Assembly (NCBI GenBank): GCA_048497675.1
Contig: JBHJNC010000039.1
Location: 1 to 33,193, forward strand
Direction of reading: 5' to 3'
Origin: Gimesia maris
GTDB lineage: Bacteria > Planctomycetota > Phycisphaerae > Sedimentisphaerales > Anaerohalosphaeraceae
DNA: 33,193 nt
Shown here: positions 4,563 to 16,694 of the stretch, one piece after another
Layout of the letters: every line of letters begins with the position of its first letter
Numbering within the stretch: position 1 is the stretch's first letter
Notes under the pieces: model-generated
Databases searched by the model: none
The model's input: only the letters and a program-made list of their open reading frames with translations
Told to the model about the DNA's origin: nothing
Position numbers and translations under genes: made by a program

Positions 4563-6647
4563 ATGGCTGACGACTTATCCTTAGTACGAAATATCGGTAT
4601 TATGGCGCATATCGACGCCGGCAAGACGACGGTATCGGAGCGGATATTATATTTCAGCGGCAAGACATACAAAATCGGTGAAGTTCACAACGGCACGGCC
4701 GTAATGGATTATCTGGAAGAAGAACAGCAGCGCGGCATTACGATTACCTCGGCGGCTACCAAATGTCCGTGGAAAGGCTACGACATCAATCTGATCGATA
4801 CGCCGGGCCATGTGGATTTTACGGCGGAGGTCGAACGGTCGCTTCGTGTTCTCGATGGGGCGGTGGCTGTTTTTGACGCCTCAGAGGGTGTTCAGGCTCA
4901 ATCGGAGACCGTCTGGCGGCAGGGGCAGAAGTATCAGCTGTCGTGCCTGATTTTCATCAACAAGATGGATAAAATCGGCGCCGATTTCGAGATGTGTCTT
5001 CGAAGCATTCACGATAAACTGTTGTCAAACCCTGTCCCGGTGCAGATTCCAATTGGTTACGAATCGACATTCGAAGGAATGGTTGATTTGGTTAAGATGA
5101 AAGCGGTGTATTTCACCCAGGAAGAAAAAGGCGCCAGCTTCAGAGAAGAGGCGATTCCTGCGGACCTGATGGATAATGCGTTGCACTATCGGTCCAAGAT
5201 GATCGAGGCGGCGGCGGAGTTTGATGATGAAATGATGGAGCTGTATATCAGTGACCAGCCTATCGCGGAGGATGTGATTTATCGGGCGATTCGAAAGGGT
5301 ACCGTGGCCAACACATTGCACCCTGTTCTGGTGGGTTCGGCACTGCGTAATATCGGCGTTCGCCGTCTGCTGGATGCGGTGGTTAATTATCTGCCTTCGC
5401 CGCTGGACATGCCGCCGGTAATTGGACATGAAAACGGCGACAAAAACAAGCCTGTCAAAGTTGTTTGCGACCCCAAAAAGCCGCTTGTGGCGATGGCGTT
5501 CAAGATTACCAGCGACAAGCACGGTGATTTGTATTTCCTGCGTATCTACCAAGGGGCTGTTCATAAGGGCACACGCGTATTTAATCCGAACCGTAATGTC
5601 AAAGAAAATGTTACCCGGCTGTTTCACATGCATGCCTCAGAGCGTCTTATTATCGACTCTGCTTTTGCCGGTGATATTGTGGCGGTGCTGGGACCCAAAG
5701 ATACCTTGACCGGCGATACCCTCTGTGACTCCAAAGAAAATGTCATGCTGGAAGGCATCACGTTTCCGGAAACGGTTATTAGTATGTCAATTGAGCCGAT
5801 TTCCGCGGCTGAGCGAAATCGACTTGGTGAAGCGCTGGCGATGCTGCGAAAAGAAGACCCCACATTCAAATCCAAATTTGATCCGGAAACAGGACAAACC
5901 ATCATCAGCGGTATGGGTGAACTGCACCTGGAGATTCTGGAAAATAAGCTGATTCGGGATTTAGGGGTAAAGGTGCGTGTGGGCAAGCCTCGCGTGGCCT
6001 ATAAAGAGGCGATTGCCGGAACTGCCGAAGGGGAGGGCAAATTTATCCGTCAAACCGGCGGCCGGGGACAATATGGGCATGTGGTTATCCGGATGGAAGC
6101 GTTGTTCAGCGAAGACGGCCACTATGCCAAAACCAACCAATTTGTCAACGCCATCATTGGAGGGTCCATTCCGAAAGAGTATATTCCTTCCGTTGAGGCA
6201 GGTGTTATGGGGGGGCTTACCAGCGGTTCGCTGGCGGGGTATCCTGTTGTCGGCGTGAAAGTTACGCTGCTGGACGGGTCGTTTCATGCGGTCGATTCGT
6301 CGGAATTGGCGTTTGAACAGGCTGCGAGTATTGCGGTACAGGATCTCCTCGGCAAGGCAAATCCGGTGCTTCTGGAGCCAGTAATGCGTGTTCAGGTGGT
6401 AACGCCTGAAAACTACTTTGGGGCTATTCAGGGCAATCTGGTTGCACGACGCGGCGAAATTACCAATTCCTATCTGCACGGCACGGTTCGGGTGATTGAT
6501 GCCAAAGTGCCGCTTGGGGAAATGTTTGGTTATGCGAGCCAGATTCGCAGTGCCACGGCGGGGCGGGGCACATTTACCATGGAGCCTTTAAGTTATGAAC
6601 GGGTTCCCGACCAAATAATTGAAAAAATTCTTTTAGGAAGTTATTGA
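4563..6647 (+). CDS. fusA: Elongation factor G (str-locus copy, somewhat divergent)
   Basis: NIGIMAHIDAGKTT, RGITITSAA, DTPGHVDF, NKMD, GMGELHLEI, GGRGQYGHV and EMFGY motifs; 694 aa. Confidence 0.97.
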   Translation: MADDLSLVRNIGIMAHIDAGKTTVSERILYFSGKTYKIGEVHNGTAVMDYLEEEQQRGITITSAATKCPWKGYDINLIDTPGHVDFTAEVERSLRVLDGAVAVFDASEGVQAQSETVWRQGQKYQLSCLIFINKMDKIGADFEMCLRSIHDKLLSNPVPVQIPIGYESTFEGMVDLVKMKAVYFTQEEKGASFREEAIPADLMDNALHYRSKMIEAAAEFDDEMMELYISDQPIAEDVIYRAIRKGTVANTLHPVLVGSALRNIGVRRLLDAVVNYLPSPLDMPPVIGHENGDKNKPVKVVCDPKKPLVAMAFKITSDKHGDLYFLRIYQGAVHKGTRVFNPNRNVKENVTRLFHMHASERLIIDSAFAGDIVAVLGPKDTLTGDTLCDSKENVMLEGITFPETVISMSIEPISAAERNRLGEALAMLRKEDPTFKSKFDPETGQTIISGMGELHLEILENKLIRDLGVKVRVGKPRVAYKEAIAGTAEGEGKFIRQTGGRGQYGHVVIRMEALFSEDGHYAKTNQFVNAIIGGSIPKEYIPSVEAGVMGGLTSGSLAGYPVVGVKVTLLDGSFHAVDSSELAFEQAASIAVQDLLGKANPVLLEPVMRVQVVTPENYFGAIQGNLVARRGEITNSYLHGTVRVIDAKVPLGEMFGYASQIRSATAGRGTFTMEPLSYERVPDQIIEKILLGSY

Positions 6648-6672
6648 CAAGTATAAAAGCCTGTTATATACT
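6644..6672 (+). promoter_or_regulatory. sigma70-type promoter overlapping the fusA stop codon
   Basis: TTGACA (6644-6649), 17-bp spacer, TATACT (6667-6672). Confidence 0.75.
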
Positions 6673-6680
6673 CCTTCTTT

Positions 6681-6950
6681 CCGGCCGAGCGAGCGCGTTA
6701 TGAATGAATATCGTGCGATTCGAGTTGGGCTGTTCATCTCAGTTTGAGATTTTATGGACGGCACTGAAGCCTTCAAGGCTTTGAATGCCAAATACATGTA
6801 GTGCAAGGACTTACATCAAGTTTAATGCGCGAAAGTTAAATTGTGGACGTATTTGGTAATTAGGATTTCATACACAAATAGATTGGGTATGTCCTATAAT
6901 TTTGTCCTCAGGTATCTTAAAAAATGAATGCGATTCTGATGGACTAAAAT
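6681..6950 (+). ncRNA. Candidate structured RNA (ncRNA or long S10 leader)
   Basis: Back-to-back hairpins and a three-way junction found by hand, starting just after the promoter. No family recognised. Confidence 0.4.
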
Positions 6951-10036: not shown

Positions 10037-10315
10037 ATGGGACGTTCGCAGAAAAAAGGGCCTTTTGTTGATGAAAAGCTGTATCTGAAAGTGCAAAAGC
10101 AGATTCAGAGCGGCCGGAAAGAACCAATCAAGACCTGGGCCCGTGCCTGCACGATTATACCGGAATTCGTCGGTTATACGTTTATGGTTCATAACGGTAA
10201 AATGTTCCATAAGGTGTTTGTGACGGAAGATATGGTTGGTCACAAGATGGGCGAGTTTTCGCTGACCCGTACGTTTAGAGGTCATTCAGGCAGCAAAGCT
10301 GAAGCTAAAGCATAA
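10037..10315 (+). CDS. rpsS: 30S ribosomal protein S19
   Basis: [15 protein letters not shown] and [13 protein letters not shown] motifs. Confidence 0.99.
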
Positions 10316-10372
10316 AACGGATAAATAGAGATAACGGCGATAGAACGCCGGATGTTTCAAAAGGTTAAAACA

Positions 10373-10921
10373 ATGTTGAGCGCTAAGAAATTTTTAAAAC
10401 AATCGCAGAAAAAAGGCGTGAGTGTCCAGACGCTTGCAGATCATCTGACTCGTGGCGGTATGGATAAAGAAGCTGCCTTAACCGCGGTGAAGAATTGGAT
10501 GAAGGGTTTATTTGCAGTGAAACCCGCCAAACAGGATGTTCAGCGGCTCGCCGATGCCTTGGGTGTTAGCGTCAGTGATATTTCTGAATGGAAGTCATCC
10601 TATCGATATGCTCCGATGTCACCGAGCAAAGTTCGTCTGGTAACCTCATTGATTCGCGGCCGTGATGTTCAGGACGCGTTGGATATCCTGACATTCACAC
10701 GCAAACGAGCCGCCGAAGCCGTTCGCAAAACCCTGCAGGCTGCGATTGCGGATGCCGACGAGAATGAAGCCGATGTCGATAATTTGGTTGTTTCCGAAGT
10801 CCGGGTTGATGGCGCTGGTCGTCGGATAGGCACCAAAGGGTTCAGAGCGAAAGATCGCGGACGCGCTCATGCGATTCGTAAACAAGCCAGTCATATTCAC
10901 ATAGCAGTGGCGGAATTTTAA
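10373..10921 (+). CDS. rplV: 50S ribosomal protein L22 with N-terminal XRE/Cro-like HTH extension
   Basis: L22 core runs from W at 10589 (YRYAPMSPSKVRLV ... GRAHAIRKQASHI), after 72 in-frame extra residues. Start placed at ATG 10373 because of the AAGGT SD at 10361-10365; ATG 10352 is the alternative. Confidence 0.95.
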   Translation: MLSAKKFLKQSQKKGVSVQTLADHLTRGGMDKEAALTAVKNWMKGLFAVKPAKQDVQRLADALGVSVSDISEWKSSYRYAPMSPSKVRLVTSLIRGRDVQDALDILTFTRKRAAEAVRKTLQAAIADADENEADVDNLVVSEVRVDGAGRRIGTKGFRAKDRGRAHAIRKQASHIHIAVAEF

Positions 10922-10938
10922 TTCACGGATACAGATAT

Positions 10939-11754
10939 ATGGGTCAGAAGACATCTCCAATCGGTTTTAGAACAGGTATCACTCGTGGCTGGGACAGCAT
11001 TTGGTTTGCTCCCAAGGCCAATTACGGTGAGTTTCTTGTCGAGGACTTCAAGATTCGCGAGTTCATCGACAATAAGTTCAACCGCCGTGCTCCTTATGCT
11101 GCAGTTGCCAAGACGGAAATCGCCCGTACTCGCAATGAAGTGAAGGTTACCCTGCACACCGCACGGCCCGGTATGGTCATCGGTCCCCGCGGAGCGGAAG
11201 TTGATAAACTCCGTGAAGAACTTGAAAATCTCATTGATCGCAAGGTCAATGTCAATGTGATTGAAATCAAGGAAGCTGCTCTTGATTCGAAGCTGGTTGC
11301 CGAAGGCATTTCCGAACAGCTTAAGAAACGTGCCGCGTTCCGCCGTGTGATGAAAATGGCATGCGAAAACGCGATGAATGCAGGCGCCAAGGGGGTCAAG
11401 ATTCTGATCAGCGGCCGTTTGGGCGGTGCTGAAATCGCACGCAGCGAAGCGCAGAAGCTGGGTTCGATTCCGCTGCAGACTCTGGATGCCAACGTGGATT
11501 ACGGCGTTGCAACAGCTGTGACCACTTATGGCTGCATTGGCATTAAAGTATGGATTTACAAGGGTAAATTCGGCGAAGAAATTACCCCGGTACAGCGTTC
11601 AGCCGGCGGCGAACGCCGTCGTCCTCAGCGCGGCGGAGAACGAGGCGGTAAAGGGCCTCGACGCAGCCGTCAGGATGCCAGTCAGAGCCGTGTTGCTCCT
11701 CAGGCAGACGAATCGGCCGAACCAATGGATAACAATACTGTTGAAAACAGCTAA
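10939..11754 (+). CDS. rpsC: 30S ribosomal protein S3 (long low-complexity C-terminal tail)
   Basis: MGQKTSPIGFR, ARPGMVIG, SGRLGGAEIARSE and IGIKVWIYKG motifs. Confidence 0.99.
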   Translation: MGQKTSPIGFRTGITRGWDSIWFAPKANYGEFLVEDFKIREFIDNKFNRRAPYAAVAKTEIARTRNEVKVTLHTARPGMVIGPRGAEVDKLREELENLIDRKVNVNVIEIKEAALDSKLVAEGISEQLKKRAAFRRVMKMACENAMNAGAKGVKILISGRLGGAEIARSEAQKLGSIPLQTLDANVDYGVATAVTTYGCIGIKVWIYKGKFGEEITPVQRSAGGERRRPQRGGERGGKGPRRSRQDASQSRVAPQADESAEPMDNNTVENS

Positions 11755-15719: not shown

Positions 15720-16226
15720 TTGGCTGAGGAAGCAATCAGAACAGAAATGTACGGCGAACAGCCGCTGGAAGAGACCGTTGTGAAGGTTTATCGCAACGCC
15801 AAAGTCGTTAAGGGCGGCAGACGTTTCAGCTTTGCTGCACTGGTCGTAGTTGGTGATCGCAATGGTACAGTAGGGTACGGGTACGGCAAGGCCAATGAAG
15901 TTCCTCCGGCCGTCGAAAAGGCAATCAAAGACGCCAAGAAGAATCTTAAAAAGATTGTTGTCGTCAATGATACACTGCCGCATCAAATTCACGGCAAATG
16001 CCGTGCAACGGATGTGCTCATGATGCCGGCCAGCCCTGGTACGGGTGTTATTGCCGGTTCATCGGCTCGTGCGATGCTTGAGCTGGCGGGAGTACGCAAT
16101 GTGCTGACCAAAATTTATGGCAGCCGTTCGCCGAAAAATGTGGTCAAAGCCGTGATGGCCGGTCTTGTGAAACTTCAAAATAAAGAGACAATCGAGTCGC
16201 TTCGCGGCGTAAAGATTGAAGCTTAA
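15720..16226 (+). CDS. rpsE: 30S ribosomal protein S5
   Basis: TTG start after GGAG; KVVKGGRRFSF, GKANEVP and PGTGVIAG motifs. Confidence 0.98.
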   Translation: MAEEAIRTEMYGEQPLEETVVKVYRNAKVVKGGRRFSFAALVVVGDRNGTVGYGYGKANEVPPAVEKAIKDAKKNLKKIVVVNDTLPHQIHGKCRATDVLMMPASPGTGVIAGSSARAMLELAGVRNVLTKIYGSRSPKNVVKAVMAGLVKLQNKETIESLRGVKIEA

Positions 16227-16244
16227 ACTAAGGACGTAAGTAAG

Positions 16245-16694
16245 ATGTATATACATGAAATTACAGCAATTGCCGGAGCGCATAAAAAACGCAAGCGAGT
16301 TGGACGCGGTACTGCCAGCGGCCACGGCAAAACCTGCGGACGCGGACAGAAGGGTGATGGATCCCGTTCAGGATTTTCAATCCCCTTGACCTATGAAGGC
16401 GGACAGATGCCTCTGTTTCGCCGCATACCCAAACGCGGGTTTAACAATGCCAATTTCACCACTCGTTATGAAGTTGTGAATGTATCGCAGTTGGACCGCG
16501 TTTTTGATGATGGTGCTGCTGTGGGCGCCAAAGAAATGTATGTTGCCGGTTTAATCGACAGCACCGACAGCCGCATCAAAATCCTTGGTGATGGCGAGTT
16601 GTCGAAAAAGCTGACCGTGACTGCCCATAAGTTCAGCAAGAGTGCCGAACAGAAAATTTCCGGCTGCGGCGGAACCGTGAAAGTCGTAGCTTAG
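16245..16694 (+). CDS. rplO: 50S ribosomal protein L15
   Basis: RVGRGTASGHGKT and EGGQMPLFRRIPKRGF motifs. Confidence 0.99.
   Translation: MYIHEITAIAGAHKKRKRVGRGTASGHGKTCGRGQKGDGSRSGFSIPLTYEGGQMPLFRRIPKRGFNNANFTTRYEVVNVSQLDRVFDDGAAVGAKEMYVAGLIDSTDSRIKILGDGELSKKLTVTAHKFSKSAEQKISGCGGTVKVVA

What the first reader, a model, noticed from the sequence alone, without database searches (positions are those of the whole stretch)
10373..10588. Ribosomal protein L22 fused to an N-terminal Cro/XRE-like helix-turn-helix domain
Seen: 72 in-frame residues precede the L22 core with no stop, a good SD lies only before the extension, and no in-frame start sits at the core boundary. The extension reads as a five-helix XRE fold: SAKKFLKQSQKKG / VSVQTLADHL / (TRGGMD) KEAALTAVKNWMKG / P-AKQDVQRLADALG / VSVSDI, echoing the family pattern GLSQEELA...TISRWENG...P....L..LA.ALGVS..EL. 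Known: L22 is normally about 110-120 aa with its globular body at the tunnel exit; XRE domains bind DNA, while MBF1/EDF1 uses this fold on ribosomes and RodZ uses it to bind protein. Inference: either free L22 moonlights as a transcription factor sensing ribosome assembly, or every 50S displays an HTH at the tunnel exit that tethers ribosomes to DNA or docks a factor. This is the best candidate for a new system in the window; I cannot tell whether it has been reported.
Basis: partly seen in the sequence, partly recalled or inferred. Interest (0 to 1): 0.85.

Follow-up and report, generated by a model that had tools for sequence, protein, structure and literature searches.

The report
Repressor fold welded onto ribosomal L22
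In this bacterium, in nearly all examined members of its order and in two distant families, the gene for ribosomal protein L22 carries a conserved extra domain predicted to have a phage-repressor fold; it lacks residues typical of DNA-binding repressors and likely grips ribosomal RNA on the ribosome surface rather than regulating genes.

Summary
Confirmed. Window 10373-10921 encodes a 182-aa uL22, the only one in this 74%-complete genome, with a 72-aa N-terminal domain. The domain is under purifying selection (median dN/dS 0.12), has a five-helix XRE/Cro-C1 model (pLDDT 95.7; best structural match Z 10.0) and is fused without a linker. It occurs in 40 of 41 Sedimentisphaerales genomes and in two Phycisphaerales families (53 of 53), but was not found in the other Phycisphaerae or Planctomycetota searched. 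The domains form one clade; their carriers do not (p-AU 4.5e-9). The transcription-factor idea is weak: the XRE Arg/Glu pair and helix-2 Gln are lost (4 and 0 of 129, versus 70 and 63 of 99 control domains), and no operator dyad is conserved. In the predicted pose, alignment to rRNA-binding N-terminal extensions of Porphyromonas and some Deinococcus uL22 structures starts at helix 3. Best reading (0.6): a fixed, rRNA-binding surface module of the 50S subunit. Side find: an unlisted structured S10-leader RNA restricted to Sedimentisphaerales. Not found in ten paper searches. This scan noted the fusion twice before on other genomes; one note's class-wide range is contradicted here.

The parts
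10373..10921 (+). rplV: 182-aa uL22 with fused N-terminal XRE-fold domain; the only PF00237 match in G000
10373..10588 (+). 72-aa five-helix XRE/Cro-C1-like domain; about 7 extra residues in the turn before helix 3; no linker to the core
10466..10501 (+). Helix 3 (residues 32-43), the recognition-helix equivalent; W42 invariant, N41 and K/R40 conserved, outer N-terminal positions variable; predicted to lie where uL22 N-terminal extensions of other bacteria contact 23S rRNA
10589..10921 (+). uL22 core starting at W73 (strand beta-1)
10823..10831 (+). Three-residue insertion in the uL22 tunnel beta-hairpin, in 14 of 14 Sedimentisphaerales rows and 0 of 47 other rows (exact placement depends on the alignment)
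10361..10365 (+). Shine-Dalgarno-like AAGGT, 7 nt before the start
10037..10315 (+). rpsS (uS19), upstream neighbour in the canonical S10-operon order
10939..11754 (+). rpsC (uS3), downstream neighbour
6644..6672 (+). sigma-70-type promoter-like site (TTGACA-17-TATACT) at the fusA stop; -35/-10 positions kept in relatives, spacer dyad not kept
6680..6739 (+). Conserved structured RNA at the 5' end of the S10-operon leader (candidate ribosomal leader; side finding)
   Evidence: no Rfam match

Best explanation
rplV encodes uL22 with a conserved, linker-less N-terminal domain predicted to have an XRE/Cro-C1 helix-turn-helix fold, which likely serves as a permanent rRNA-binding surface module of the 50S subunit rather than as a gene regulator. 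Shown: the fusion, its single copy, its conservation, purifying selection and the loss of canonical XRE signature residues. Predicted: the fold and a fixed pose against the uL22 core. Inferred: once uL22 is in the subunit, helix 3 and the basic loop after it would pack on 23S rRNA near H24/H25/H46/H47, where shorter uL22 N-terminal extensions of other bacteria bind, clamping domain I/II helices beside the tunnel exit and helping assembly or stability. A small repressor gene was probably captured in frame once and then spread to, or survived in, two separate carrier clades.
For: (1) Constitutive: one PF00237 match in G000; one A1-profile match per carrier genome. (2) Rigid junction: indels in 66 orthologues fall only at the N-terminus or in the turn between helices 2 and 3, never at the join; full-length model pLDDT 91.2, pTM 0.81, with strand beta-1 starting at residue 73 right after helix 5. 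(3) Position: VIA-align pairs about 14-16 more residues than the 107-110 typical of extension-less uL22 for P. gingivalis 9i5t_V (124 aligned, model 32-181 to chain 2-128) and 9i5v_V (123, from model 33), and D. radiodurans 3pio_P and 4u67_P, both from model 31. In all four the alignment starts at helix 3. The P. gingivalis extension is a helix inserted between 23S H25 and H47 (PMC12123416, passage); the C. acnes extension anchors H2, H24, H46 and H19 (PMC10085706, passage). (4) Chemistry: K/R6 128, K/R40 115, N41 127, K/R44 110 of 129 Sedimentisphaerales domains are kept, while R11 with E43 occurs in 4 and Q18 in 0 of 129 (0 and 0 of 21 Phycisphaerales; 70 and 63 of 99 control XRE domains). 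(5) Median dN/dS 0.12 for the domain and 0.04 for the core over 28 of 78 within-genus pairs with usable dS. (6) Precedent: the cro/C1-type HTH of EDF1/Mbf1 sits between 18S h16 and h33 (PMC7486125, passages); T. gondii mitoribosomes reuse transcription-factor folds as rRNA scaffolds (PMC11742926, passages), and an LSU chain of that ribosome (9g6k_Lj, Z 7.7) and a human 80S chain (9p73_CH, Z 6.9) are among the structural matches.
Against: No experiment shows rRNA binding. The positional argument rests on a predicted inter-domain pose (no PAE or coordinates were returned) and on range-only output; rmsd rises to 3.1-3.6 A in those four rows, and three other Deinococcus chains (7a0r_P, 7a0s_P, 5jvg_P) align only 109 residues. 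No 23S length or single-column feature tracks the fusion (14 carriers vs 16 non-carriers; 0 columns with up to 2 exceptions), and none of bL32, PDF, trigger factor, bL21, uL13 or 18 other proteins shows a loss or residue that tracks it, so nothing explains why only these lineages need the module. Net charge is unremarkable (mean +2.6 and +4.2 vs +2.4 in controls).
Confidence: 0.6

Rival explanations
1. The domain is a protein-docking platform at the exit-site rim that recruits or excludes a nascent-chain factor (peptide deformylase, methionine aminopeptidase, a targeting factor or a lineage-specific partner).
For: The globular part of uL22 forms the PDF site with bL32 and rRNA (bioRxiv 10.1101/2022.04.20.488877, passages). 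Conserved non-basic surface-looking positions exist (G29, L46, P49/P51, D55, E66). Caryophyllales chloroplasts build an exit-side domain from uL22, uL13 and bL21 extensions (bioRxiv 10.64898/2026.07.03.736309, passages). This can hold together with rRNA anchoring.
Against: PDF (66 of 67), bL32 (67 of 67) and trigger factor (66 of 67) are present in carriers and non-carriers alike; no residue in Map, SecY, uL23, uL24, uL29 or bL17 tracks the fusion. No partner gene was identified.
Confidence: 0.15
2. Free HTH-uL22 is an RNA-level autoregulator: in Sedimentisphaerales it binds the conserved structured leader of the S10 operon, using the same surface it uses on rRNA.
For: A covarying RNA structure lies directly after the S10 promoter in 13 of 14 order genomes inspected and in 17 of 20 order genomes by covariance model. 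Its core can be drawn as tandem G-A pairs beside a bulge (for the flanking pairs), resembling the kink-turn region of H46 (my reading; the kink-turn assignment is recalled). r-leaders often mimic rRNA sites (PMC7247131, passages).
Against: The RNA was not found in 0 of 21 f19/f27 carrier genomes (strict filters), so it cannot be what maintains the domain there. The model found no match in four carrier 23S loci or E. coli 23S. uL4 is the known S10-leader ligand in E. coli (recalled) and is an equally near candidate.
Confidence: 0.1
3. Free HTH-uL22 moonlights as a sequence-specific DNA-binding transcription factor sensing ribosome assembly.
For: The fold is that of phage repressors and controller proteins; members match PHROG transcription-regulator families (12 of 53 at best E 1.9e-7); basic residues on the DNA-facing side are kept; the window's promoter spacer holds a 9-bp-arm dyad at 6650-6672.
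Against: Loss of R11/E43 and Q18; positions 32-34 and 36 of helix 3 have 2.5-3.0 bits of entropy, among the highest; the dyad scores 8 of 9 only in G000 and 4-6 of 9 at shifting centres in 12 relatives; the only palindromes shared upstream of rpsJ are A/T runs; helix 5, a common dimer element (recalled), is four residues and runs straight into the uL22 sheet. Only the S10 promoter was examined.
Confidence: 0.07
4. The domain faces outward and binds DNA non-specifically, tethering ribosomes to the nucleoid.
For: Basic residues kept without base-reading conservation fit non-specific nucleic-acid binding.
Against: The predicted pose places helix 3 at the rRNA-bound extension site, which would hide the DNA-binding face; net charge is modest.
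Confidence: 0.04
5. The domain is a tolerated passenger kept only because it now supplies the start signals and shields a hydrophobic face of uL22.
For: It evolves about three times faster than the core; many related lineages lack it.
Against: dN/dS 0.12; invariant W42 and near-invariant N41, P49 across two orders; kept in every carrier family searched.
Confidence: 0.04

Closest known systems
Bacterial uL22 (PF00237, TIGR01044), including forms with short N-terminal extensions in Porphyromonas gingivalis, Cutibacterium acnes and Deinococcus radiodurans
   Same: Same core, same place in the S10 operon, single copy; extra N-terminal material predicted at the same surface site.
   Different: The addition is a whole 70-79-aa folded domain of repressor ancestry, not a 17-25-residue arm; none of the 48 PDB sequences matched by P0001 aligns over it (best stretches start at residue 68 or later).
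XRE/Cro-C1 (HTH_3 clan) regulators: C.Csp231I, C.AhdI, P22 c2, lambda cI, 434 repressor, ImmR, SinR
   Same: Five-helix fold (Z 8-10, rmsd 1.3-2.3 A over 57-66 residues); W42-x-x-G and the P-x-P loop.
   Different: Fused to an essential ribosomal protein; longer turn and helix 3; canonical Arg/Glu pair and helix-2 Gln lost; no conserved operator found.
EDF1/Mbf1 and archaeal MBF1
   Same: A cro/C1-type HTH that binds rRNA helices on the ribosome (PMC7486125, passages); weak structural match 9p73_CH Z 6.9 (that this chain is EDF1 is my inference from its size and entry).
   Different: Separate, transient factor on the small subunit at the mRNA entry; has an MBF1 or zinc-ribbon domain; reported absent from bacteria. 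Here: covalent part of a large-subunit core protein.
Transcription-factor folds reused in the Toxoplasma mitoribosome (ApiAP2 proteins, BolA-like mL151)
   Same: DNA-binding folds turned into rRNA scaffolds without their canonical DNA contacts (PMC11742926, passages).
   Different: Organelle ribosome with fragmented rRNA and separate proteins; here an intact bacterial 23S with no co-varying loss.
PRK12279 'L22/unknown domain fusion' (NF008917)
   Same: A uL22 carrying an extra domain.
   Different: Matches only the core (profile 11-108 of 311; 43 bits vs cut-off 526); its extra part is C-terminal to the core.

Membership tests
uL22 (rplV) | Profile score above curated cut-off | tested here: met
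   PF00237 98.8 vs 28 bits; TIGR01044 92.8 vs 73.65
uL22 (rplV) | Position between rpsS and rpsC; sole copy | tested here: met
   (genome 73.8% complete); one match per genome
uL22 (rplV) | Full-length protein incorporated into the 50S subunit | not testable with these tools
   needs proteomics or cryo-EM
XRE/Cro-C1 HTH fold | Five-helix bundle superposable on lambda/434/C-protein domains | tested here: met
   model pLDDT 95.7; Z 10.0, rmsd 1.6, 66 aligned to 3lfp_A, and nearly all of the 50 listed rows are XRE-type. Foldseek E-values were not significant (best 0.085) though probabilities were 0.82-1.0; the tool warns that Z under 13 can be common for helical domains
XRE/Cro-C1 HTH fold | Pfam HTH_3-clan score above gathering threshold | tested here: inconclusive
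   window domain 15 bits vs 23; of 53 members 16 match HTH_31, 12 HTH_19 (best E 1.4e-7), 11 HTH_3 at E<=0.01
XRE DNA-binding regulators | Helix-1 Arg paired with the Glu after the recognition-helix Trp (structural role recalled from 434 repressor) | tested here: not met
   4 of 129 and 0 of 21 vs 70 of 99 control domains
XRE DNA-binding regulators | Gln at the start of helix 2 (phosphate contact; role recalled) | tested here: not met
   0 of 129 and 0 of 21 vs 63 of 99
XRE DNA-binding regulators | Conserved palindromic operator at own operon | tested here: not met
   only the S10 upstream region was examined
XRE DNA-binding regulators | Dimerisation and sequence-specific DNA binding | not testable with these tools
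   needs SEC-MALS, EMSA, DAP-seq
MBF1/EDF1 | N-terminal MBF1 or zinc-ribbon domain before the HTH | tested here: not met
   the HTH begins at residue 1-2; no MBF1 family listed
MBF1/EDF1 | HTH contacts rRNA helices on the ribosome | tested here: inconclusive
   positional inference only
Ribosomal leader (r-leader), for 6680-6739 | Conserved covarying structure upstream of a ribosomal operon | tested here: met
   the structure was drawn from these same sequences, which favours it
Ribosomal leader (r-leader), for 6680-6739 | Binds a protein of the operon and represses it | not testable with these tools
   ligand unknown

The most novel reading that the evidence does not exclude
A captured phage-type repressor domain became a built-in rRNA clamp of the bacterial 50S, was passed between two orders by transfer of part or all of an essential ribosomal gene, and in Sedimentisphaerales also lets spare uL22 read a kink-turn-like leader RNA that mimics its rRNA site, making HTH-uL22 a new autoregulator of the S10 operon.
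Probability: 0.1. Interest if true: 0.85.

Novelty: new variant of a known kind. Interest (0 to 1): 0.57.

Why it matters
Bacterial core ribosomal proteins rarely gain whole folded domains, and I found no paper describing a repressor-fold domain as a covalent part of a bacterial 50S protein. If the reading holds, it is a bacterial parallel to EDF1/MBF1 and to mitoribosomal reuse of transcription-factor folds, a clean case of a DNA-binding fold turned to rRNA, and it remodels the surface next to the peptide-deformylase site. The patchy range implies either many losses or transfer within an essential operon. Some database entries start the gene downstream (113-153 aa), which may have hidden the domain. 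One cryo-EM map of a carrier ribosome would decide the main question.

Tried and rejected
Homodimer prediction of full-length HTH-uL22: no answer, score 0.00 in two runs; not used as evidence. ESM Atlas: no usable hit for P0004 residues 1-72; P0001 and P0303 are not held. Foldseek on the domain alone gave no E<=0.001 match. Profile hits to ShTniQ (E 0.00085) and CapH are weak; TniQ was not among the 50 structural rows, so no special kinship is claimed. Compensation for lost rRNA or neighbours: none found in 23S, bL32, PDF, trigger factor, bL21, uL13 or 18 operon proteins. A free-standing copy of the domain in non-carriers: not found (the one outside hit, G335, is E 4.4e-6 inside a 912-aa frame). 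Whole-gene transfer of rplV could not be excluded: the free uL22-core tree separates the two carrier groups, but holding them together is not rejected (p-AU 0.126, 106 columns). One search's DNA pattern had one position too many, so its counts (8 of 121) are not prevalence. A paper search for XRE signature residues found nothing, so their roles are recalled. PMC13338714, PMC11354259, PMC5071890 and PMC7797042 (passages only) did not mention this fusion in the passages seen. G020 gave only a 33-residue fragment and is the one order genome not counted as a carrier.

Full report
Observation. The window holds a canonical S10-spc-alpha ribosomal cluster. Between rpsS and rpsC, 10373-10921 encodes 182 residues: a 72-residue N-terminal part and a uL22 core (PF00237 77-179; TIGR01044 above cut-off). 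It is the only uL22 in G000 (73.8% complete). The start is fixed by relatives: 38 of 66 loci have an in-frame stop within 6 codons upstream, 58 of 66 an SD-like word, and 8 of 66 any start codon just before the core. Independent contigs cross the junction. Source labels of close homologues name Anaerohalosphaeraceae and Sedimentisphaerales; two close records are titled Pirellulales, which conflicts with those labels and was not resolved.

Range. 40 of 41 genomes of the order carry the domain (with for two partial alignments; the exception is a fragment). In the order centred on G056, which source labels tie to Phycisphaerales, f19 has it in 42 of 42 genomes and f27 in 11 of 11, counting G640, whose assembly appears frameshifted while an intact protein with an identical core exists (P0303); f26 (0 of 41), f15 (0 of 41), f21 (0 of 14 with a match) and f108 (0 of 1) lack it. 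A domain profile over 401 genomes of the phylum hit 32: 31 carriers from those groups and one weak unrelated frame. In the class search only the best 150 of 250 matches were listed. Among 1.84 billion representatives the strong single-domain hits are uL22 fusions or their N-terminal fragments, followed by ordinary XRE proteins (the output was cut in the middle).

Fold. From a 53-row alignment (66 loci thinned to under 80% identity) AlphaFold2 gives five helices at pLDDT 95.7 and a full-length model at 91.2, pTM 0.81. VIA-align ranks C.Csp231I first (Z 10.0, rmsd 1.6, 66 aligned), and nearly all 50 rows are XRE or lambda-repressor-like; Foldseek agrees in kind without significant E-values. Pfam support is sub-threshold for this protein but reaches E 1.4e-7 in relatives. 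Length changes fall in the turn before helix 3 or at the N-terminus, never at the join to the core. Median dN/dS is 0.12 for the domain and 0.04 for the core (28 of 78 pairs kept for usable dS).

Is it still a repressor? Against 99 control domains from 56 free-standing XRE proteins that I picked from the hits (not verified DNA binders, and found by the same profile), the fused domains have lost the Arg11/Glu43 pair (4 of 129 and 0 of 21 vs 70 of 99) and Gln18 (0 and 0 vs 63), while keeping K/R6, K/R40, N41 and, in Sedimentisphaerales, K/R44. The four that keep Arg/Glu show the ancestry. Outer positions of helix 3 are highly variable. The roles of these residues are recalled from the 434 repressor; a paper search for them found nothing. 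The promoter at 6644 is real as a consensus and its position is kept, but its dyad is not, and no palindrome other than A/T runs is shared upstream of rpsJ in 25 carriers (some upstream stretches were short).

Where would it sit? Aligning the full model to solved chains, extension-less uL22s pair about 107-110 residues from model 69-72 on. P. gingivalis 9i5t_V and 9i5v_V and D. radiodurans 3pio_P and 4u67_P pair 123-125 residues starting at model 31-33, the start of helix 3; human and Polytomella mitoribosomal uL22 also pair extra residues. Three other Deinococcus chains do not. The P. gingivalis extension is a helix between 23S H25 and H47 (PMC12123416, passage; its supplementary figures were not seen); that of C. 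acnes anchors H2, H24, H46 and H19 (PMC10085706, passage). This depends on a predicted pose and on range-only output, so it is suggestive, not proof. It points to the recognition helix facing rRNA. A cro/C1 HTH bound between rRNA helices has precedent in EDF1/Mbf1 (PMC7486125, passages).

What changed with it? Nothing found. No 23S length or column tracks the fusion in 14 carriers against 16 non-carriers. bL32, PDF, trigger factor, bL21 and uL13 are present on both sides, and no residue of 18 operon proteins tracks it. This counts against a simple compensation story and leaves the selective reason open.

History. A concatenated tree of 16 other ribosomal proteins plus SecY separates Sedimentisphaerales from f19/f27 by several non-carrier lineages; one carrier clade is rejected (p-AU 4.5e-9; 27 of 61 rows, first 2400 of 2918 columns, quick tree), while f19+f27 together is not (p-AU 0.25). 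The domains form one clade against 12 free XRE domains (98/93; 73 columns, bootstrap not fully settled), and a Sedimentisphaerales-only profile scores 30 f19/f27 domains at 42.7-81.3 bits against at most 42.7 for free XREs. The uL22 core tree follows the species tree, but a carrier clade is not rejected (p-AU 0.126). So: one origin, then either many losses or a transfer of the 5' part or all of rplV; no direction can be given.

Side finding. Just after the 6644 promoter lies a conserved RNA structure (6680-6739) in 13 of 14 order genomes inspected, with compensatory changes in 10 of 13 pairs (structure drawn from the same sequences) and no Rfam match. A covariance model finds it in 17 of 20 order genomes, about 3.5-4.2 kb upstream of rplV, in 0 of 21 f19/f27 carriers and once, weakly and elsewhere, among 39 non-carriers. 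It is a candidate r-leader; PMC7247131 (passages) has no Planctomycetes mention. Its ligand is unknown; uL4 is the default, HTH-uL22 a possibility.

Novelty. Ten searches of the open library, four aimed at the fusion itself, returned no description; subscription papers, bioRxiv supplements and InterPro/UniProt were not searchable. All papers were seen as listings or passages, none in full. This scan noted the fusion twice before; my reading was recorded before seeing them. One note says the whole class carries it, which contradict. Verdict: a real, lineage-fixed fusion of an XRE-fold domain to uL22, most likely an rRNA-binding surface module; a new variant of a known kind; interest 0.57.

Noticed in passing
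window 6680-6739 (+): Conserved, covarying RNA structure at the 5' end of the S10 leader, restricted to Sedimentisphaerales among genomes searched, without an Rfam match; tandem G-A core could be kink-turn-like.
   Followed up: partly
window 10823-10831 and 10613-10615 (+): All 14 Sedimentisphaerales uL22 cores examined have a three-residue insertion in the tunnel hairpin and Pro at position 81 where nearly all others have Arg. PDB 4u67 is a Deinococcus 50S with a three-residue L22 insertion (title); an effect on tunnel shape or macrolide binding is untested.
   Followed up: no
G640:C1 near 2801600 (L156): rplV of this f27 genome appears frameshifted within the HTH domain; an intact 177-aa protein with an identical core is on record, so probably an assembly error.
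   Followed up: partly
P0161 (908-nt contig): An HTH-uL22 whose domain groups with f19 but whose core sits on a long branch near f21; may mark a third carrier lineage.
   Followed up: partly
cluster members P0279, P0281, P0289, P0294: Database entries of 113-153 aa start inside or after the domain, so annotation can hide the fusion.
   Followed up: no
L267-L279: bL21 carries a loop insertion in 7 of 8 Sedimentisphaerales rows and in G670 and G625; peptide deformylase matches are about 10-20 residues longer in f19. Neither tracks the fusion.
   Followed up: partly
window 16226-16245: rpsE is followed directly by rplO with no room for rpmD (uL30); not checked elsewhere in the genome.
   Followed up: no
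L200 (G031 23S rRNA): An insertion of about 290 nt near E. coli position 1851-1900, likely an intervening sequence.
   Followed up: no
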